NCBI GenBank assembly: GCA_964536865.1
Contig: CAZHYN010000001.1
Span: 16,195 to 80,194 of the forward strand
Source of the DNA: an uncultured Planctomycetia bacterium
GTDB lineage: Bacteria; Omnitrophota; Gorgyraeia; Duberdicusellales; 4484-171
Reading direction: 5' to 3'
Length of the DNA: 64,000 nt
Shown here in pieces: positions 5,046 to 38,458 of the stretch. The translations under genes were made by a program, and so were the position numbers. The notes under the pieces are model-generated. The model ran no database searches and had not been told where the DNA came from. It saw nothing but the letters and a program-made list of their open reading frames with translations. Numbering within the stretch: position 1 is the first letter of the stretch; each line of letters opens with the position of its first letter.

Positions 5046-6143
5046 CTATAGTCTCATAGGTAAGACTAAATATATATAATCTTCTAATCTTAAGACCGCT
5101 GGTTTATCTGGACCATAGATTTCAAAACTAATTTCTTCTTCTTCTAAGTTAGTGAGAACGTCTATTAAATAAGAAGGATTAAATCCTATCTGTAAGGAGG
5201 TTCCTTTAAAGTTAGCAGGTATTGATTCTTTAACTTCTCCTAATTGAGGAGTAGTTTTAAAAAGAAAGACCTCCTCTTTTTTTAACTCTAATTTTACTCC
5301 GGGATAATCACTGGTGGATAAAAGCTCTGCTCTTTTTAAAGCCGATAAAAAATCTCTTCTTTTAATAGTGAGTTTAACTTCTGTGGGTTGAGGAATATAT
5401 TGAGAGTAATTAGGAAATTCACCTTCTATAGGTCTGGTAATAAAAAGTGTATGTTTTAAATCAAACCCTATATTATTTTTCTCTATAAAAATAAATAATT
5501 CCTCCGAATCTCTTATTATCTTAACTAATTCTTGAATGGATCTTATAGGAAGAATAAAATTAAGCTTTGTTGTTAAGTTAGATTGAGGAGAAGGTAGTTT
5601 TCTTTTAATAAAAGATAATCTCTTCCCATCTGTAGCAACTAATTTTAATTGGTCTTCATAAATTTCAAAAAATATCCCATTTAATACATAGTTAACATCC
5701 TCCATTCCTACACAAAATGAAGTTAATTTAATCATTTCTATTAAATCTTGAGAGATAATTTTTATTAAAGTTTTCTCTTTAACTTCCTCTATTCGAGGAA
5801 ATTCTTGAGGATCCATTCCATTTATTTTAAACTCAATTTTTCCACATCTTATTAAAAGATTGTTCTTATAAGACTCCAAGATAATTTTCTCTTTAGGTAG
5901 TTCTCTTATTATAGAGAGAAATTTTTTAGTAGGTATTGCAACTTTTCCTTCTCTTTCGATTTCTTTTGTTGGAGTATAAGTAGTTATAGTGATGTTTAAA
6001 TCTGTAGTAGTAAGTTTTATCTTATCTTTAAAAGCCTCTATTAGTATACAATTTAAAATAGGGAAGTTTTGTTTAGTAATAGAAAGAGTTGCTACTTTTT
6101 GAAGAGTTGATAATAAAATATTTTGTTCTATAACAAATCTCAC
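5046..6143 (-). CDS. dnaN: DNA polymerase III beta sliding clamp
   Basis: 365-aa ORF, typical clamp length and N-terminus, directly downstream of dnaA. Confidence 0.9.
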   Translation of the reverse strand: MRFVIEQNILLSTLQKVATLSITKQNFPILNCILIEAFKDKIKLTTTDLNITITTYTPTKEIEREGKVAIPTKKFLSIIRELPKEKIILESYKNNLLIRCGKIEFKINGMDPQEFPRIEEVKEKTLIKIISQDLIEMIKLTSFCVGMEDVNYVLNGIFFEIYEDQLKLVATDGKRLSFIKRKLPSPQSNLTTKLNFILPIRSIQELVKIIRDSEELFIFIEKNNIGFDLKHTLFITRPIEGEFPNYSQYIPQPTEVKLTIKRRDFLSALKRAELLSTSDYPGVKLELKKEEVFLFKTTPQLGEVKESIPANFKGTSLQIGFNPSYLIDVLTNLEEEEISFEIYGPDKPAVLRLEDYIYLVLPMRL

Positions 6144-6255: not shown

Positions 6256-7584
6256 TCAACTTTTAATTAATTGTGTTAAAGTGTTGATAATATTTTTTAC
6301 TTTTTCATCTTTTTTTATTAAGTCTTTTATTTTTCGATAAGCATAAAGAATGGTGGTGTGGTGTTTTGCTCCCCAAAAACTACCAATTTCTGGAAGAGAA
6401 AGTTCAGTTAGTTCTCTTATAAGATACATACCAATTTGTCTAGGTAAGACAATATTTTTATTTCGTCTGCTTTTTTTAATCTCCTGGGGAGAAAGATTAA
6501 AGTAATTAGCTACTTTTCCTAAAATAACTTCTGGGGTAATTCTTCGATAAATTTCTTTTACCATATCTCTTAAAATTTCCTTAGCTAAAACTAATGTAAT
6601 AGGCTTATTTTCTATTAAAGAGTAAGCAATAATCCTAATTAATGCTCCTTCCATTTCTCTGATATTAGTAGTAATATTCTCAGCAATAAAGTTAATTACT
6701 TCTTCTTCTATTTTAACTGGTTCCTTCTCTACTTTCTTCTTGAGAATAGCTATTCTTGTTTCTAAATCAGGGGGTTGAATATCTACAATTAATCCCCAAC
6801 TAAATCGAGATACCAATCTATCTTCTAATTTAGGAATTTCCTTAGGGGGTTTATCTGAAGAGATAATTATCTGTTTATGATAGTCATATAGCTCATTAAA
6901 AGTATGAAAAAACTCCTCTTGGACCGCCTCTTTTCCTGAAAGAAAATGAATATCATCGATAAGAAGTACATCTATACCTCGGTATTTCTGGCGAAAACGA
7001 GGAGTAGTTCTATTTTGAATAGAAAGAATAAGTTCGTTAGTAAATCTTTCTGAAGAAATATATTTTACCTTGATTTGAGGTGTTTTTTCAAGAATGTAAT
7101 GAGCAATAGCTTGCATAAGGTGGGTTTTCCCCAACCCTACTCCTCCATAAATAAATAGGGGGTTGTAAGATTTCCCTGGGGCGTTAGCTACCGCTAAGCT
7201 AGCAGCGTAAGCCATACGATTACAAGCTCCTACTATGAAATTATTGAATGTAAATCGAGGATTAAGCCGAAGAGAATCTTGTGGTTCTTCTTTAAAACTA
7301 TCGTGGATACGGCGGAAGATTCTATTTGTTCTTTTCTTTAGAAGGTTGGGGTTAACTTCAAAGTTTATCTGAAAATCTTTATGGGCAATGTCTCTTAAAC
7401 ATTGTTTAATTTGTAAAAGGTAATTTGTTTCCACCCATTGTTTAAAGAAATTGTCGGGAACCTCTAGAATTATTCTATCTTCAGAGAGGGTTTTTAACTT
7501 TAGAGGAGCGATCCAGGTATCAAAGGAAATCTTTCCTAAAATTTTTTTAAGCGCCTCTAGGCATTTATCCCAAAGTTTTTCCAT
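6256..7584 (-). CDS. dnaA: Chromosomal replication initiator DnaA
   Basis: 442-aa ORF with AAA+ Walker A GGVGLGKTHL and C-terminal DNA-binding domain. Confidence 0.95.
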   Translation of the reverse strand: MEKLWDKCLEALKKILGKISFDTWIAPLKLKTLSEDRIILEVPDNFFKQWVETNYLLQIKQCLRDIAHKDFQINFEVNPNLLKKRTNRIFRRIHDSFKEEPQDSLRLNPRFTFNNFIVGACNRMAYAASLAVANAPGKSYNPLFIYGGVGLGKTHLMQAIAHYILEKTPQIKVKYISSERFTNELILSIQNRTTPRFRQKYRGIDVLLIDDIHFLSGKEAVQEEFFHTFNELYDYHKQIIISSDKPPKEIPKLEDRLVSRFSWGLIVDIQPPDLETRIAILKKKVEKEPVKIEEEVINFIAENITTNIREMEGALIRIIAYSLIENKPITLVLAKEILRDMVKEIYRRITPEVILGKVANYFNLSPQEIKKSRRNKNIVLPRQIGMYLIRELTELSLPEIGSFWGAKHHTTILYAYRKIKDLIKKDEKVKNIINTLTQLIKS

Positions 7585-7731: not shown

Positions 7732-7869
7732 ATGAAGAAGCGGTTAACTACCCCTACTAAACTGAAAGGAAAGCGAAAACACGGTTTTCGTAAAAGGATG
7801 GCCACTCATTCAGGGAGAGTGATTCTCCAAAGAAGAAGAAAGAAAGGGAGGAAAAAACTCACAGTATGA
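7732..7869 (+). CDS. rpmH: 50S ribosomal protein L34
   Basis: 45-aa [48 protein letters not shown]; absent from the ORF track (below its size cutoff); its TGA stop overlaps the yidD ATG (ATGA). Confidence 0.9.
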
Positions 7870-8072
7870 AGAATATTTTTTTAACAATAATTGACTTTTA
7901 CGATTGCGCAAAATGGTTCTTTCCTACCTGTTGTAAATTTACTCCTTCTTGTTCTCAGTATGCCCGAGAGGCTTTTAGAAAATACCCTTTACCTAAGGCA
8001 TTAAAAGCAGTCTTCCTAAGAATCCTTAAATGCCATCCTTTTTCTCCGGGAGGGGTTGATTACTTAGAATAA
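7866..8072 (+). CDS. yidD: Membrane protein insertion efficiency factor YidD
   Basis: 68 aa with the C-K-F-x-P-S-C-S-x-Y motif; sits between rpmH and yidC. Confidence 0.85.
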
Positions 8073-9497
8073 ATGGAAAGACGTTTAATTGCTTTTATAG
8101 TAATTACTCTCCTCTTCTTCATCTTTTATGCTCATCTTACTAGTAAATATCTTCCCAAGAGTCCTCCTCGCTCGGTAGAGGTCAAAAAGGAAGAGCCCTC
8201 AAAAGAAGAAACAGCTCTCTTAAAAGAGGAACAGTTAGAAGAGGTATCTACAGAAGAATTTATCATAACATTCTCATTAACAGGAGGTTATATAAAAAAA
8301 ATCTTTGTTAAAAAGTATCAAGAGGAGCTCCTTTTCAAAGATATAGGATTGGTTTTTACCCATCGTACTCTTCCTTTTCAACTTACCCGGGAAAAAGAAA
8401 AGATAGTTCTTTTTAATCATGGAAAGAACATAAAAAAAGAATTTCTCTTTAAAGGGTATACGCTAACCTTAAGAGTAAAGGGAGAAGAAGAGGCAGAATT
8501 AGTTCTTTTTCATAACCCTTTGAATAATAATAGATTAGAGCAAAGATACCAAGAATTCTTCTATCAAAACACTTCTTCTACTCTTAAGCGTTTTCCTCAG
8601 AAGAGAGCTCCTTCTAAGGGATTTACTTCTTCTCTTTTTGGGGTAAGAGATAGGTATTTTTGTCTAGTCTATTTTTCAGAGAAAAATTCCCTAAAGCTCT
8701 CTCGACTAAAAGATAACTCTCTCCTCTGCCAGGTGTCTATAAAGGATTCCTTCTCTATCCAAGCATTCTTAGGGCCTCAACTCTTGGGAGAATTAAGTAA
8801 ATATCATTTAGAAGAGATAGTGAATTACGGGTTCTTCCATCCTATAGGGAAAATCTTAGTAAAGCTTCTTTCCCTCTTCGCCTTATGGACGAAAAATTGG
8901 GGAGTAAGTATTATTCTTCTCTCTACCATAATCTACATAGCTCTATTTCCTTTTACTTTTCGCAGTACCCAAGCGATGCGGAAGATGCAAGCACTTCAAC
9001 CTAAAATAGAGGAACTCAAGAACAAGTATAGAGATAATCCCCAGAAGTTGAATAAGGAGATCTTAGAGCTTTATCGCACTCATCAAGTAAATCCGTTAGG
9101 AGGATGTTTGCCTATCTTTTTTCAATTACCAGTATTCATTGCTCTTTATCAAGTGCTCTTGCGAGTGGTAGAACTCAAAGGGGCAAAATTCTTGTGGATA
9201 AAAGATCTTTCTCTTCCTGATAGAGCGATTTCTCTTCCTTTCTCTCTCCCTTTCCTAGGGAAATATATAAACTTTCTTCCCATTCTTATCGTAGTTATAG
9301 GCCTTCTTCAACAGAAGATTGTGTCGCAAGATTCACTTCAAGCTCAACAACAAAAGTCTATGGGACTATTTTTTGCAGTATTTATTGGAGTAATCTTTTA
9401 TAACTTCCCTTCAGCATTAGTGTTGTATTGGTTAATCCAGAATCTTCTTACTTTTCTCTATCAGTGGAGGATTTCCCCTAAACAAGCTTCTTCTTAG
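8073..9497 (+). CDS. yidC: Membrane protein insertase YidC
   Basis: 474 aa with N-terminal TM, periplasmic domain and C-terminal 5-TM Oxa1/YidC core (the C-terminal half of the ORF is hydrophobic); rpmH/yidD synteny. Confidence 0.9.
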   Translation: MERRLIAFIVITLLFFIFYAHLTSKYLPKSPPRSVEVKKEEPSKEETALLKEEQLEEVSTEEFIITFSLTGGYIKKIFVKKYQEELLFKDIGLVFTHRTLPFQLTREKEKIVLFNHGKNIKKEFLFKGYTLTLRVKGEEEAELVLFHNPLNNNRLEQRYQEFFYQNTSSTLKRFPQKRAPSKGFTSSLFGVRDRYFCLVYFSEKNSLKLSRLKDNSLLCQVSIKDSFSIQAFLGPQLLGELSKYHLEEIVNYGFFHPIGKILVKLLSLFALWTKNWGVSIILLSTIIYIALFPFTFRSTQAMRKMQALQPKIEELKNKYRDNPQKLNKEILELYRTHQVNPLGGCLPIFFQLPVFIALYQVLLRVVELKGAKFLWIKDLSLPDRAISLPFSLPFLGKYINFLPILIVVIGLLQQKIVSQDSLQAQQQKSMGLFFAVFIGVIFYNFPSALVLYWLIQNLLTFLYQWRISPKQASS

Positions 9498-9507
9498 AGT
9501 CTTTTTC

Positions 9508-9536
9508 TTGACAATTTCTCCAATCTCTTATAAAAT
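9508..9536 (+). promoter_or_regulatory. Sigma70-type promoter upstream of parAB
   Basis: TTGACA (9508-9513), 17-nt spacer, TAAAAT (9531-9536). Confidence 0.5.
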
Positions 9537-9560
9537 TAAAAACCAGAAGATTACTTACAG

Positions 9561-9586
9561 AAAAAGTTTCCACGTGGAAACTTTTT
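9561..9586. promoter_or_regulatory. Perfect 26-bp palindrome with a parS-like core, upstream of parA
   Basis: AAAAAGTTTCCACGTGGAAACTTTTT; the core GTTTCCACGTGGAAAC resembles the parS consensus tGTTTCACGTGAAACa with one extra base pair per half-site. Confidence 0.55.
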
Positions 9587-9641
9587 CGTCAGAGGCGAAT
9601 CTCTGATAAGGAACTATAAGATTTATAAACACTTTTCTTCA

Positions 9642-10445
9642 ATGAGCAAGATAATAGGTATCTGTAATCAGAAGGGAGGAACAGGGAAAACTACTACTGC
9701 GGTAAATTTAACTACCTTTCTAGCTTTAGTAGGAGAAAGGACTCTTCTCGTAGATGTGGATCCTCAAGGGAACGCTACTAGTGGTCTAGGAAGAGAAGTC
9801 TCCTCAGAAACTCCCTCCATCTATCAAGGACTGATAGGAGAAAAGTCTGGGCAAGAACTCATTGTCCCCACCTCTTGGGAGAATCTCTTTCTTATTCCTT
9901 CTTCTCTTTCTCTTACAGGAGCAGAGATAGAGCTTGTCTCTTTGGAGGAGAGAGAGAGTAGATTAAGACAGCTGTTAGAGATAATGCGGGATAATTTTGA
10001 TTATATTATTCTCGACGCTCCCCCTTCTTTAGGTCTTCTTACTATAAATGTGTTGGTAGCAGCAGATACCCTTATTATTCCTATTCAGTGTGAATATTAT
10101 GCTTTAGAGGGAGTTTCCAAACTTTTAAGCACTATTGAGTTGGTAAAAGAGAGACTAAATCCTCATTTGGAGATCGAAGGAATCCTTCTTACTATGGCAG
10201 ATTTCAGGACTCGTCTTACCCTTCAAGTGATAGAAGAAGTAAAAAGATTTTTTAAGGAAAGAGTGTTCACCACTATTATTCCTCGCAATGTAAAATTAGC
10301 AGAAGCTCCTAGTTTTGGTAAACCTATTCTTTTCTATGATCCCTCCTGCGTAGGAACAAAAGCTTATCTTAATTTAACCCAAGAGATTTTAAAGAAAAAG
10401 ATAAATCTCGATCTCTATGGTTCTCTATTAAAGGAAGGAGGCTGA
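9642..10445 (+). CDS. parA: Chromosome partitioning ATPase ParA/Soj
   Basis: Deviant Walker A KGGTGKTTTAVNL; 267 aa. Confidence 0.9.
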   Translation: MSKIIGICNQKGGTGKTTTAVNLTTFLALVGERTLLVDVDPQGNATSGLGREVSSETPSIYQGLIGEKSGQELIVPTSWENLFLIPSSLSLTGAEIELVSLEERESRLRQLLEIMRDNFDYIILDAPPSLGLLTINVLVAADTLIIPIQCEYYALEGVSKLLSTIELVKERLNPHLEIEGILLTMADFRTRLTLQVIEEVKRFFKERVFTTIIPRNVKLAEAPSFGKPILFYDPSCVGTKAYLNLTQEILKKKINLDLYGSLLKEGG

Positions 10446-10449
10446 TTTT

Positions 10450-11280
10450 ATGGAAAGGAAAGTATTAGGGAAAGGATTAGAGGCATTGATTCCTAAAAGA
10501 AAAGAAGAAAAGGAAAAAACGCTTCTTTATCTCTCTGTAGAGAAAATAGAACCTTCTCCTTTTCAACCTCGTCAAGAGATGGATGCCCAAGAATTAGAGG
10601 AGCTGAAAGCTTCTATCAGAGAGAAAGGGGTAATTCAACCTATTATAGTAAGAAAGGTGAGAGAAAGATTTGAAGTCGTTGCAGGAAGTCGCAGAGTTCA
10701 AGCTGCTAAGTCTTTGGGAATCAAAGAATTACCAGCAGTAGTTCGAGAGATAAGTGATAAAGAGTCTTTGGTTTTAGCTTTGATAGAAAATTTACAAAGA
10801 AAGAATCTCAATCCTATTGAGGAAGCATTAGCTTTTAAGAGATTAAACGAGGAATTTGCCCTCACCTATGAAGAGATAGCTAGACTCATAGGGAAAGATA
10901 AAGCCTCTATTTCTAACACTATCCGCCTTCTTAAACTCCCCCAGGAGATTCAGGAAGCCCTTAAGAAGAGTATAATTACCTTTACTCAAGCAAGGGCCCT
11001 TTTAGGATTGGAGAGAGAAGAGGAGCAGAAGGCCCTTTTTTACAGAATCATTAAAGAGAGACTTTCAGTAAGGGAGATAGAAGAAAGGGTAAGGAGACAC
11101 TTCCCTAAGAAACCGAAGAAGAAAGTTGAAGATCCTTTTGTGGAGGAAGTAGAGGAGAGATTGAGGAAGAGTTTAGGGACAAAAGTAAAAGTGTTGCATA
11201 AAAGAAACAATCAAGGTAAAATTATCATCCAGTATTACAACTTAACGGATTTACAGAGAATAGTAGAGAAGTTATCATGA
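10450..11280 (+). CDS. parB: Chromosome partitioning protein ParB/Spo0J
   Basis: 276 aa with ParB N-terminal box (GSRRVQAAK) and HTH; follows parA. Confidence 0.9.
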   Translation: MERKVLGKGLEALIPKRKEEKEKTLLYLSVEKIEPSPFQPRQEMDAQELEELKASIREKGVIQPIIVRKVRERFEVVAGSRRVQAAKSLGIKELPAVVREISDKESLVLALIENLQRKNLNPIEEALAFKRLNEEFALTYEEIARLIGKDKASISNTIRLLKLPQEIQEALKKSIITFTQARALLGLEREEEQKALFYRIIKERLSVREIEERVRRHFPKKPKKKVEDPFVEEVEERLRKSLGTKVKVLHKRNNQGKIIIQYYNLTDLQRIVEKLS

Positions 11281-13358: not shown

Positions 13359-13430
13359 GGCGGCGTAGCCAAGGGGGAAGGCAGTGGTCTGCAAAACCAC
13401 TATTCAGCGGTTCAAATCCGCTCGCCGCCT
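13359..13430 (+). tRNA. tRNA-Cys (GCA)
   Basis: Acceptor stem GGCGGCG/CGCCGCC, anticodon loop CTGCAAA, T-loop TTCAAAT, discriminator U; no encoded CCA. Confidence 0.8.
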
Positions 13431-13573
13431 TAAAGAAGAATTTTTAGGCGGAGAGGAGAAATAAATTTGTTTGTAGCAAGAGGTTATCTCTATAAGTTAT
13501 TCCCGCACTGCTTACAATTGAAGAGAGTAACATTAGGAAGAATTAAAAGTTGCTGAAGAGGAGAAAGAATTAT

Positions 13574-13659
13574 GGGCGGGTGGCGGAATAGGCAGACGCC
13601 TGGGACTTAAAATCCCATGTCCCGTAAGGGACGTGAGGGTTCGAGTCCCTCCCCGCCCA
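13574..13659 (+). tRNA. tRNA-Leu (TAA)
   Basis: Acceptor GGGCGGG/CCCGCCC, anticodon loop CTTAAAA, long variable arm GTCCCGTAAGGGAC, T-loop TTCGAGT. Confidence 0.8.
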
Positions 13660-13751
13660 GGTTAACAAAATTACAGATTTATCAATTATAAATTTCAAAT
13701 TTTATAAATTAATTTGTAATCTATAATTGGCTAATTTGAAATTATATTTTT

Positions 13752-13828
13752 GGGCGCATAGCTCAGGTGGCTAGAGCGTCACGTTGACATCGTGAAGGTC
13801 AGAGGTTCAAATCCTCTTGCGCCCACCA
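13752..13828 (+). tRNA. tRNA-Val (GAC), CCA encoded
   Basis: Acceptor GGGCGCA/TGCGCCC, D-loop AGCTCAGGTGGCTAGAGC, anticodon loop TTGACAT, T-loop TTCAAAT, 3' ACCA. Confidence 0.85.
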
Positions 13829-22762: not shown

Positions 22763-22925
22763 GAAAATTCCCTGCCTGTTGCGTGAGCAGGCATTGCGCC
22801 ACAGCCAACACTGTTTAAGAGGGAGCTTTTCTCTCCTACTGCTGAGGCAGTGGGAGGCGGCGCCCACCTGTATGAGGACCGGACTGTTGGTGGTAAGCCT
22901 GCCACGGACACAAGGCAGGGTTTTT
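22763..22925 (+). ncRNA. Structured small RNA of about 160 nt; candidate 6S RNA (ssrS)
   Basis: Locally GC-rich, non-coding region between a consensus promoter and a hairpin + U5 terminator (GCCTGCC...GGCAGGG TTTTT at 22906-22925); long-range complementarity between the 5' and 3' ends (CCCTGCC/GGCAGGG, GCAGGC/GCCTGC, CCACAGCCAACA/TGTTGGTGG) and internal hairpins; lies upstream of rarA and the 5-formyl-THF cyclo-ligase gene, the classical 6S linkage. Confidence 0.45.
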
Positions 22926-33330: not shown

Positions 33331-33343
33331 TGAGAAAACCTTT

Positions 33344-33370
33344 AAGCTGGTCCCGTGAGGCCAGCAAGGA
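33344..33370 (+). promoter_or_regulatory. PyrR-binding RNA stem-loop (anti-antiterminator element)
   Basis: AAGCTGGTCCCGTGAGGCCAGC: stem GCTGG/CCAGC enclosing UCCCGUGAGGCC, matching the PyrR box consensus (A/G)UCCnGnGAGGyU; located in the pyrR leader. Confidence 0.65.
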
Positions 33371-33400
33371 GAGGAACAATGAAAAAGAAATTTAAAATTA

Positions 33401-33437
33401 AAAACCCACTTTCAAAGAGTGGGTTTTATTTTTTTTA
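33401..33437 (+). terminator. Intrinsic terminator (pyr attenuator)
   Basis: AAAACCCACT-ttcaaag-AGTGGGTTTT followed by ATTTTTTTT, immediately upstream of the pyrR start. Confidence 0.7.
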
Positions 33438-38386: not shown

Positions 38387-38458
38387 GCCCCTGTAGCTCA
38401 ACGGATAGAGCACAGGCCTCCGGAGCCTGGAATACAGGTTCAATTCCTGTCAGGGGCA
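38387..38458 (+). tRNA. tRNA-Arg (CCG)
   Basis: Acceptor GCCCCTG/CAGGGGC, D-loop AGCTCAACGGATAGAGC, anticodon loop CTCCGGA, T-loop TTCAATT. Confidence 0.85.

What the first reader, a model, noticed from the sequence alone, without database searches (positions are those of the whole stretch)
9561..9586. Perfect 26-bp palindrome with a parS-like core immediately upstream of parAB
The palindrome AAAAAGTTTCCACGTGGAAACTTTTT sits between the promoter and the parA start. Its core GTTTC-CACGTG-GAAAC is the parS consensus (tGTTTCACGTGAAACa) with one extra base pair per half-site. It is either a divergent parS centromere or an operator for ParB/ParA autoregulation. The spacing variant relative to canonical parS is itself unusual.
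Basis: seen in the sequence. Interest (0 to 1): 0.5.

Follow-up and report, generated by a model that had tools for sequence, protein, structure and literature searches.

The report
Variant chromosome centromere (parS) upstream of parAB
The palindrome is real and is most likely this Omnitrophota bacterium's chromosome-segregation centromere, a lineage-specific variant of the almost universal parS sequence that changes together with a DNA-reading residue of its binding protein ParB.

Summary
The palindrome exists as described and is in fact 28 bp perfect (9560-9587). It lies 29 nt after a strong promoter-like site and 55 nt before parA, about 2 kb from dnaA at the GC-skew switch.

The 16-bp core GTTTCCACGTGGAAAC is not a one-off. 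Every relative fetched through ParB at 50-87% identity that has Lys at the Caulobacter Arg173 position carries 1-6 copies of GTTTYCACGTGRAAAC between the gene upstream (yidC or gidA) and parA. None carries a canonical parS. More distant Omnitrophota with Arg173 carry canonical TGTTNCACGTGNAACA at the same spot.

In 92 loci fetched through ParB:
- K173: 9 loci, 23 variant sites, 0 canonical.
- R173: 83 loci, 0 variant sites, 58 canonical.

Three later look-ups chosen by ParB residue alone gave the expected site type each time. Arg173 is the residue that hydrogen-bonds the outer guanine of parS, and that guanine sits one base further out here.

A truncated scan of 185,579 species genomes found the same 16-mer concentrated in Omnitrophota, Elusimicrobiota (next to parAB), Gaiellales and some Saccharimonadia.

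I found no paper holding any of the four 16-mers. Verdict: a divergent parS, possibly also a parAB operator. It is a new variant of a known kind. No binding was tested.

The parts
9560..9587 (.). 28-bp perfect palindrome GAAAAAGTTTCCACGTGGAAACTTTTTC. The A5/T5 flanks extend the conserved core.
   Evidence: The flanks are not conserved in relatives, although A is enriched at positions -9 and -10.
9566..9581 (.). 16-bp core GTTTCCACGTGGAAAC, the proposed variant parS and ParB nucleation site.
   Evidence: Unique in the window. The family GTTTYCACGTGRAAAC is conserved upstream of parA in all K173-ParB relatives. A canonical parS sits at the same position in R173-ParB Omnitrophota (L091, L213, L214).
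9508..9536 (+). Sigma-70-like promoter TTGACA-17-TAAAAT, presumably for parAB.
   Evidence: 11 of 12 matches. The same promoter-then-site arrangement occurs in L083, L085 and L089, 8-30 nt after the -10. This is a consensus match only; the transcription start is not shown.
9642..10445 (+). parA (Soj-type ParA ATPase, 267 aa, deviant Walker A KGGTGKT).
   Evidence: PF13614, PF01656, PF10609. In one search all NCBIfam ParA/MinD-family hits fall below their cut-offs, so this is a family-level assignment only.
10450..11280 (+). parB (276 aa: ParB_N CTPase domain, HTH_ParB, ParB_C).
   Evidence: PF02195, PF17762, PF23552. In one search TIGR00180 scores 176 bits against a cut-off of 58, and Noc TIGR04285 scores 220 against 315, so it is not Noc. 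It is the only ParB homologue in the window. The GxRR and ENLQR motifs are present.
10891..10995 (+). ParB DNA-recognition segment GKDKASISNTIRLLKLPQEIQEALKKSIITFTQAR (residues 148-182). K151 corresponds to Caulobacter R173, and T179/Q180 to G201/H202. Y140 (nt 10867-10869) corresponds to Q162.
   Evidence: Alignments to solved ParB and Noc structures, numbered through Noc Q158/K164/K169/R186 = ParB 173/179/184/201 from PMC7383237. Census of relatives.

Best explanation
The core GTTTCCACGTGGAAAC (9566-9581) is the chromosomal centromere, parS, of this Candidatus Omnitrophota genome, in a lineage-specific form.

Proposed mechanism:
1. The ParB encoded 870 nt downstream binds the core as a dimer, one helix-turn-helix per 8-9 bp half-site.
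2. ParB then binds CTP, closes into a clamp and slides onto neighbouring DNA.
3. This builds the origin-proximal partition complex, which ParA moves and which usually recruits SMC.

Compared with canonical TGTTNCAC|GTGNAACA, the inner six bases of each half-site (TTNCAC) are unchanged. The outer guanine lies one base further from the dyad. This can be read as a T inserted in the T-run, or as a TG-to-GT swap.

The change is matched in ParB by Lys in place of the otherwise invariant Arg173, which reads that guanine. In this clade there are also changes at positions 162 (Gln to Tyr/Leu), 201 (Gly to Thr/Ser) and 202 (His to Gln).

The site lies in the leader about 20-45 nt downstream of the likely parAB transcription start. 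ParB bound there probably also damps parAB transcription.

Shown here: the sequence, its position, its conservation, the mutual exclusivity with canonical parS, and the covariation with ParB residues.
Inferred, not shown: binding, CTP-dependent clamping and spreading, segregation and autoregulation.
For: 1. Context. dnaN-dnaA lie on the minus strand; rpmH-yidD-yidC-parA-parB lie on the plus strand. The GC skew changes sign at 6-9 kb.

2. Conservation in relatives. All relatives with K173 ParB (L083/84, L085-L090, L212; 50-87% ParB identity, same synteny) carry 1-6 copies of GTTTYCACGTGRAAAC in the intergenic region before parA. None occurs elsewhere in their 15-20 kb.

3. Canonical site at the same place. 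Omnitrophota with R173 ParB (L091, L213, L214) have TGTTTCACGTGAAACA or TGTTCCGCGTGAAACA 20-40 nt before parA.

4. Contingency in ParB-ascertained loci:
- K173: 9 loci, 23 variant sites, 0 canonical.
- R173: 83 loci, 0 variant sites, 58 canonical.
Three look-ups chosen by ParB residue alone (P0090, P0109, P0105) gave the predicted site type each time.

5. Role of Arg173. In the Caulobacter ParB-parS structure Arg173 hydrogen-bonds parS guanine 1. In a deep mutational screen, parS-specific variants had an invariable Arg at 173 (PMC7383237).

6. Wider distribution. The exact 16-mer scan of species genomes returned blocks concentrated in four groups:
- Omnitrophota.
- Elusimicrobiota, with 1-4 sites per 8-kb block flanking parAB and ParB mostly K173.
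- Gaiellales, where the AT-rich 16-mer sits in 70% GC DNA.
- Saccharimonadia.

7. Half-sites vary independently. Of 19 sites, 8 are asymmetric at the Y/R position, against 9.5 expected if the halves vary independently. This fits a dimeric protein site, not a selected hairpin.

8. ParB is a complete chromosomal-type ParB and is not Noc.
Against: - No binding data exist. The organism is uncultivated.
- Only one copy is visible in the 64 kb available. The rest of this genome could not be read.
- The K173 association is not absolute. Four Elusimicrobiota loci (L126, L136, L149, L189) have R173 with variant sites, there with T at -9. One Chthonomonadia locus has Pro at that position.
- The K173 Omnitrophota form one clade, so the 9-versus-83 table is not 92 independent events.
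About a quarter of the hits are singletons in unrelated taxa, many of them GGTTTCCACGTGGAAACC, which are likely coding or chance matches.
- Lys is shorter than Arg. How it would read a guanine one step further out is unexplained.
Confidence: 0.85

Rival explanations
1. The site is a local operator only. ParB, or another regulator, represses the parAB promoter through it, and it has no centromere role.
For: In this genome a single copy lies in the leader, 29 nt after the -10 element. A promoter followed closely by a site recurs in L083, L085 and L089.
Against: - Relatives carry 2-6 copies spread over up to 700 bp. Some lie upstream of the promoter or directly after the yidC stop.
- In other genomes the motif is dispersed. 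SI.B36 has at least 7 sites on 3 contigs, spanning more than 170 kb of one contig. One Elusimicrobiaceae MAG has 4 contigs with sites.
- A canonical parS occupies the same spot in R173 relatives.
- No canonical parS is present to serve as the centromere instead.
Confidence: 0.08
2. The site is an RNA or DNA hairpin: a bidirectional intrinsic terminator for yidC, or an attenuator in the parA leader (12-bp stem, ACGU loop, A5/U5 flanks).
For: - The leader folds well (-27.6 kcal/mol, z = -5), with the palindrome as a 12-bp stem.
- The A-tract/T-tract flanks resemble those of bidirectional terminators.
- Similar flanks recur in SI.B36 and in an Elusimicrobiaceae MAG.
Against: - The terminator scan did not flag it. 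The stem has few G-C pairs and the U-run is consumed by pairing.
- It lies downstream of the promoter it would terminate.
- What is conserved across 50-100% ParB identity and across phyla is the 16-bp sequence, not pairing. The flanks vary (tc..gc, gg..at, c..g in Gaiellales).
- C..A asymmetric sites, which would be mismatches in the plus-strand RNA, are common, and half-sites vary independently.
- No Rfam family overlaps it.
Confidence: 0.04
3. The site binds a different, unidentified protein that recognises a CACGTG-centred palindrome, and its place next to parAB is coincidental.
For: No binding was tested. ParB was not found within the 8-kb blocks of Gaiellales or Saccharimonadia.
Against: - It is mutually exclusive with canonical parS.
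- It is positionally equivalent to canonical parS.
- It covaries with ParB residue 173.
- The inner 12 bp are identical to canonical parS.
Confidence: 0.03

Closest known systems
Canonical chromosomal parS (TGTTNCACGTGNAACA) bound by ParB/Spo0J, as in Bacillus subtilis, Caulobacter crescentus and Thermus thermophilus
   Same: - Perfect dyad with an identical inner 12 bp, TTNCACGTGNAA, and a degenerate base at -4.
- Origin-proximal and next to parAB.
- One to several copies.
- Cognate ParB with ParB_N CTPase motifs, HTH and C-terminal dimerisation domain.
   Different: - The outer guanine is at -8 instead of -7: half-site GTTTYCAC against TGTTNCAC. That is 4 of 16 mismatches ungapped, or one inserted T per half.
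- ParB has Lys, not Arg, at position 173. In this clade it also has Tyr/Leu162, Thr/Ser201 and Gln202.
Noc-NBS of Firmicutes (NBS tATTTCCCGGGAAATa), a ParB paralogue whose specificity switched through Q173, K179, K184 and R201 (PMC7383237)
   Same: - It is a natural case of changed DNA specificity in the ParB fold involving position 173.
- Lys at 184, as in Noc.
- The TTTCC run is shared by the half-sites.
   Different: - The protein here is the only ParB. It sits in the parAB operon and scores below the Noc family cut-off (220 against 315 bits).
- It has K173 and T201, not Q173 and R201.
- The site keeps the CACGTG centre of parS, which NBS lacks.
Plasmid ParB-type centromere/operator sites, for example KorB-OB of RK2 or P1 parS, which act in both partition and repression
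   Same: The centromere-like site overlaps the promoter region or leader of the par operon, which suggests autoregulation.
   Different: The sequence and the protein are of the chromosomal type. KorB is only a weak match. The chromosomal context is dnaA-yidC-parAB.

Membership tests
Chromosomal parS centromere | Match to the 16-bp consensus TGTTNCACGTGNAACA | tested here: not met
   No match with up to 3 mismatches anywhere in the window. The site differs at the two outer bases of each half, or by one inserted base per half.
Chromosomal parS centromere | Inverted repeat with two ParB half-sites around a CACGTG-type centre | tested here: met
   Perfect 28-bp palindrome. The inner 12 bp are identical to canonical parS.
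Chromosomal parS centromere | Origin-proximal location, typically near parAB | tested here: met
   It lies 55 nt upstream of parA and about 2 kb from dnaA, at the GC-skew switch.
Chromosomal parS centromere | Conserved in related genomes and usually multi-copy; covaries with the cognate ParB | tested here: met
   There are 1-6 copies in all nine K173 lineages. Canonical sites occur in R173 lineages at the same place. The table reads 23/0 against 0/58. Only one copy is seen in this window.
Chromosomal parS centromere | Specific ParB binding, CTP-dependent clamp loading and spreading from the site | not testable with these tools
   This needs EMSA or BLI, a CTPase assay or ChIP-seq.
ParB/Spo0J partition protein (TIGR00180; PF02195 + PF17762 + PF23552) | Family model score above the curated cut-off; GxRR and ENLQR CTPase motifs | tested here: met
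   TIGR00180 scores 176 bits against a cut-off of 58. G79, R81, R82, E113, N114, Q116 and R117 are invariant in the alignment.
ParB/Spo0J partition protein (parS-specific type) | Arg at Caulobacter position 173, reading the outer guanine | tested here: not met
   Lys151 here. 88 of the 118 closest homologues whose recognition segment could be read have K173 with [TS]Q at 201-202. All 83 control ParBs have Arg.
Noc-NBS | Noc family score; Q173 and R201; NBS ATTTCCCGGGAAAT | tested here: not met
   TIGR04285 scores 220 bits, below its cut-off of 315. The residues are K and T, not Q and R. The site keeps CACGTG.
Rho-independent terminator | G+C-rich stem followed by a free U-run; pairing conserved rather than sequence | tested here: not met
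   Not flagged by the scan. The T-run pairs with the A-run. Relatives conserve sequence, not flanks or pairing.

The most novel reading that the evidence does not exclude
There may be a second, previously undescribed class of chromosomal centromere: a 9-bp half-site, xGTTTYCAC, with its own ParB specificity class marked mainly by Arg173-to-Lys.

It would be used by a large part of Omnitrophota, by most Elusimicrobiota, and probably by Gaiellales/Thermoleophilia and some Saccharimonadia.

It would have arisen from canonical parS by a one-base insertion in each half-site, through intermediates such as the R173 Elusimicrobiota that still carry TGTTTTCAC. That would make it a natural record of how a centromere and its binding protein change together without loss of segregation.
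Probability: 0.55. Interest if true: 0.7.

Novelty: new variant of a known kind. Interest (0 to 1): 0.6.

Why it matters
To my knowledge, chromosomal parS is regarded as one of the most conserved protein-binding DNA sites in bacteria. In the deep mutational screen I read, Arg173 of ParB was invariant among parS-specific variants (PMC7383237).

A natural lineage-wide switch of both partners gives three things:
- A ready-made system for studying protein-DNA co-evolution, complementing the engineered ParB-to-Noc path.
- A correction for genome annotation and origin or centromere prediction in Omnitrophota, Elusimicrobiota and Gaiellales, where a search for canonical parS would find nothing.
- A possible additional ParB/parS pair for DNA-labelling tools, if it proves orthogonal to the canonical pair.

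It is testable with two purified proteins and a few oligonucleotides.

Tried and rejected
It was useless for close relatives but served as 80 control loci.
- The genome contigs pattern scan stopped at 120 blocks. Copies per genome and completeness cannot be read from it. Neither this genome nor the complete genome CP070684.1 appeared in the list.
- Crude ORF context for the Gaiellales, SI.B36 and Elusimicrobiaceae sites was mixed. It is unreliable at 70% GC, and I drew nothing from it.
- The DnaA-box count gave only a few boxes around dnaA, which is not enough to place oriC precisely.
- The small neighbouring inverted repeat TCAGAG-n6-CTCTGA (9589-9606) is absent from the 87%-identity relative and was dropped.
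- Chance palindrome was rejected on conservation.
- Noc/NBS was rejected on family score and residues.
- Terminator was rejected as set out under the rival explanations.
- Structure prediction was not run, because the tool cannot model DNA.

Full report
**Observation**

Window 9561-9586 reads AAAAAGTTTCCACGTGGAAACTTTTT, as reported. The perfect dyad is two bases longer, 28 bp at 9560-9587. It is the longest zero-spacer palindrome in the window; the next is 16 bp. First-order random sequences of the same composition reached a 14-base arm once in 200 trials.

The surrounding genes:

| Feature | Coordinates | Strand |
|---|---|---|
| gyrB, dciA | upstream of dnaN | - |
| dnaN | 5046-6143 | - |
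| dnaA | 6256-7584 | - |
| rpmH | between dnaA and yidD | + |
| yidD | 7866-8072 | + |
| yidC | 8073-9497 | + |
| parA | 9642-10445 | + |
| parB | 10450-11280 | + |
| ndk, yicC, gmk, rpoZ | downstream of parB | + |

GC skew changes sign between about 6 and 9 kb, so this is the replication-origin region. A sigma-70-like site, TTGACA-17-TAAAAT, lies at 9508-9536, and the 16-bp core begins 29 nt after its -10 element. The core occurs once in the 64 kb even with three mismatches allowed. Canonical TGTTTCACGTGAAACA does not occur at all with up to three mismatches. No Rfam family overlaps the site.

**Organism and relatives**

The ParB protein is identical to one found in public assemblies on a contig of 359 kb. 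Its homologues are named Candidatus Omnitrophota.

I fetched the loci of ParB homologues at 87, 65, 62, 63, 58, 58 and 56% identity (L083/84, L085, L086, L087, L088, L089, L090). All keep the synteny dnaA | (rpmH/yidD)-yidC | parA-parB-ndk-yicC-gmk-rpoZ.

Every one carries the same 16-mer family, GTTTYCACGTGRAAAC, between yidC and parA:
- One copy in L083.
- Two or three in L085, L087, L088, L089 and L090.
- Six, counting near-matches, in L086.

None occurs anywhere else in their 20 kb.

In several loci the site-bearing module has been duplicated:
- 55-nt perfect repeats in L085.
- 57-nt perfect repeats in L087.
- Three copies of a 153-nt unit in L086.

The more distant Omnitrophota locus L091 (ParB 50% identity) has a canonical TGTTTCACGTGAAACA 23 nt before parA.

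**Controls**

A metagenome scan with a ParB alignment returned 80 loci of distant ParBs from many bacteria. Around the shared inner 12-mer TTNCACGTGNAA, these loci hold 43 sites flanked TG..CA, the canonical form. None is flanked GT..AC. All 15 GT..AC sites are in the window's relatives.

**Covariation with ParB**

I aligned the recognition segment to solved ParB and Noc structures. I numbered it through the equivalences given in PMC7383237: Noc Q158/K164/K169/R186 = ParB 173/179/184/201.

The window's ParB reads GKDKASISNTIRLLKLP...TFTQAR. Canonical ParBs read GK(S/D)R......N..RLL.LP....GHAR. The differences are:

| Window residue | Here | Caulobacter equivalent |
|---|---|---|
| 151 | Lys | Arg173 |
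| 179 | Thr | Gly201 |
| 180 | Gln | His202 |
| 140 | Tyr | Gln162 |

According to that paper:
- Arg173 hydrogen-bonds parS guanine 1, the outer G of GTTTCAC.
- Gln162, Gly170, Lys171, Ser172, Asn178 and Arg204 also contact DNA.
- In a deep mutational screen, parS-specific variants had an invariable Arg at 173.

Results in loci ascertained through ParB, not through the motif:

| ParB residue 173 | Loci | Variant sites (≤1 mismatch) | Canonical sites (≤1 mismatch) |
|---|---|---|---|
| Lys | 9 | 23 | 0 |
| Arg | 83 | 0 | 58 (in 32 loci) |

Counting only loci that have a site, the split is 9/0 against 0/32. My own arithmetic gives an exact probability of about 3e-9. This ignores the fact that the K173 Omnitrophota form one clade.

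Among the 120 closest homologues, the recognition segment could be read in 118. Of these, 88 have K173 with Thr/Ser201-Gln202, and those at 50% identity or less mostly have R173 with Gly-His.

I then made three prospective look-ups, chosen by residue alone:

| Protein | Residues | Locus | Site found upstream of parA |
|---|---|---|---|
| P0090 | K173, with Gly-His kept | L212 | aaaaGTTTCCACGTGGAAACtttt |
| P0109 | R173 | L213 | TGTTTCACGTGAAACA |
| P0105 | R173 | L214 | TGTTCCGCGTGAAACA |

Residue 173 therefore predicts the site type. The 201/202 changes are a later feature of the window's subclade.

**Wider distribution**

My tally from the titles and sequences:

| Group | Blocks |
|---|---|
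| Omnitrophota | 13 |
| Labelled Planctomycetia | 5 |
| Elusimicrobiota | about 29 |
| Gaiellales / Thermoleophilia / unclassified Actinomycetota | about 31 |
| One 28% GC genome, SI.B36 | 6 |
| Saccharimonadia / Patescibacteria | 4 |
| Singletons in unrelated taxa | about 30 |

One of the blocks labelled Planctomycetia has a ParB 57% identical to the window's. Many of the singletons read GGTTTCCACGTGGAAACC and are probably coding or chance matches.

In Elusimicrobiota the sites flank parAB, with 1-4 sites per 8-kb block. Their ParB reads GKSK...EGHxR, that is K173 with Gly-His kept and Glu at 200. Four Elusimicrobiota loci have R173 and still carry variant sites. There the base at -9 is T in 10 of 12 half-sites, giving TGTTTTCAC, which is exactly canonical TGTTTCAC with one T inserted.

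In Gaiellales the AT-rich 16-mer sits in 67-75% GC DNA with C at -9 in 62 of 68 half-sites, giving CGTTTTCACGTGAAAACG. That cannot be chance. No ParB lay within those blocks, so its residues are unknown.

**Hairpin or protein site?**

The leader RNA would fold well, and the palindrome forms a 12-bp stem. However:
- The terminator scan does not flag it.
- The element lies downstream of the promoter it would terminate.
- Relatives conserve the 16-bp sequence while the flanks change.
- The Y at -4 and the R at +4 vary independently. Of 19 sites, 8 are asymmetric against 9.5 expected, and five of those are C..A, which would be mismatches in plus-strand RNA.

This is the behaviour of two independently read half-sites of a dimeric DNA-binding protein.

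**Operator or centromere?**

In this genome the two roles cannot be separated, because only one copy is visible and it lies in the parA leader. A promoter followed within 8-30 nt by a site recurs in L083, L085 and L089, so autoregulation is plausible.

A pure operator does not explain:
- Arrays of up to six sites.
- Sites upstream of the promoter.
- Dispersed sites in other genomes.
- The absence of any canonical parS that could serve as the centromere.

**The proteins**

ParB passes the ParB/Spo0J family model (176 bits against a cut-off of 58) and fails the Noc model (220 against 315). It has the ParB_N, HTH_ParB and ParB_C domains and keeps the GxRR and ENLQR motifs. It is the only ParB homologue in the window. 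ParA has the deviant Walker A motif KGGTGKT.

**Comparison with what is known**

The element works like, and sits where, chromosomal parS does. It fails the sequence definition of canonical parS, and its ParB fails the invariant Arg173 rule. I therefore file it as a variant class of parS, not as a member of the canonical consensus.

No paper in the searchable library contains any of the four variant 16-mers. Searches for parS together with Omnitrophota or Elusimicrobia, and for variant, divergent or non-canonical parS, found no description of it. Subscription-only literature was not searched.

**Limits**

- No binding experiment was possible.
- Only 64 kb of this genome is available.
- The genome scan was truncated.
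- The K173 rule has exceptions in Elusimicrobiota.
- The structural reason why Lys would suit a guanine one step further out is not understood.

Noticed in passing
L093-L211 (Gaiellales/Thermoleophilia blocks, e.g. L099 1836 and 1859, L110 281 and 322, L114 2813 and 2845): In 67-75% GC actinobacterial genomes the AT-rich 18-mer CGTTTTCACGTGAAAACG recurs, sometimes as pairs 23-41 bp apart. It is probably the parS of that order. No ParB lies in the 8-kb blocks, so its residue 173 is unknown.
   Followed up: partly
L098, L111, L145, L161, L168, L196 (one genome, 'uncultured bacterium SI.B36', 26-30% GC): At least 7 copies of AAAAAAGTTTCCACGTGGAAACTTTTTY lie on three contigs, spread over more than 170 kb of one contig. 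This is the same extended A-tract/T-tract palindrome as in the window. One Elusimicrobiaceae MAG (L103, L112, L187, L200) shows the same with GTTTTCACGTGAAAAC. Why A/T tracts flank the site in unrelated lineages is unexplained.
   Followed up: partly
L085 9148-9166; L087 9059-9088; single copies in L083, L084 and L088: Tandem TGATACGGT repeats (2-3 copies) sit just before a degenerate parS-like site close to parA in two relatives. They may be the site of another protein. They are absent from the window.
   Followed up: partly
L085 8652-8706 and 8912-8966; L087 8845-8901 and 9148-9204; L086 8418-9093: The parS site plus about 40 nt of following leader has been duplicated as perfect 55-57-nt repeats. 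In L086 it is three copies of a 153-nt unit. This shows how site number grows in the yidC-parA spacer.
   Followed up: yes
window 9589-9606: A second small inverted repeat, TCAGAG-GCGAAT-CTCTGA, lies directly after the palindrome. It is not present in the 87%-identity relative L083.
   Followed up: partly
window 22766-22925 and 33335-33435: Rfam matches above the gathering score: 6S RNA (52.5 bits) and a PyrR binding site (57.9 bits). There are four tRNAs at 13359-13825 and 38387-38458.
   Followed up: no
L085 1-3649: GyrB of this relative is 1316 aa and carries an intein with a LAGLIDADG endonuclease domain. The window's own GyrB is of ordinary length.
   Followed up: no
L129 (titled Eggerthellaceae) and L162, L194, L195 (titled Planctomycetia): These contigs carry Elusimicrobiota-type (L129) or Omnitrophota-type (L194: 57% identity, K173/SQ) parAB loci with variant sites. 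The bins are probably mislabelled or contaminated.
   Followed up: partly
L092 6027-6884 and 7382: A Chthonomonadia (Armatimonadota) ParB has Pro at the Arg173 position (GKSP...EGHGR), with one variant site 500 bp after parB. It may be a third protein solution for the same site.
   Followed up: no
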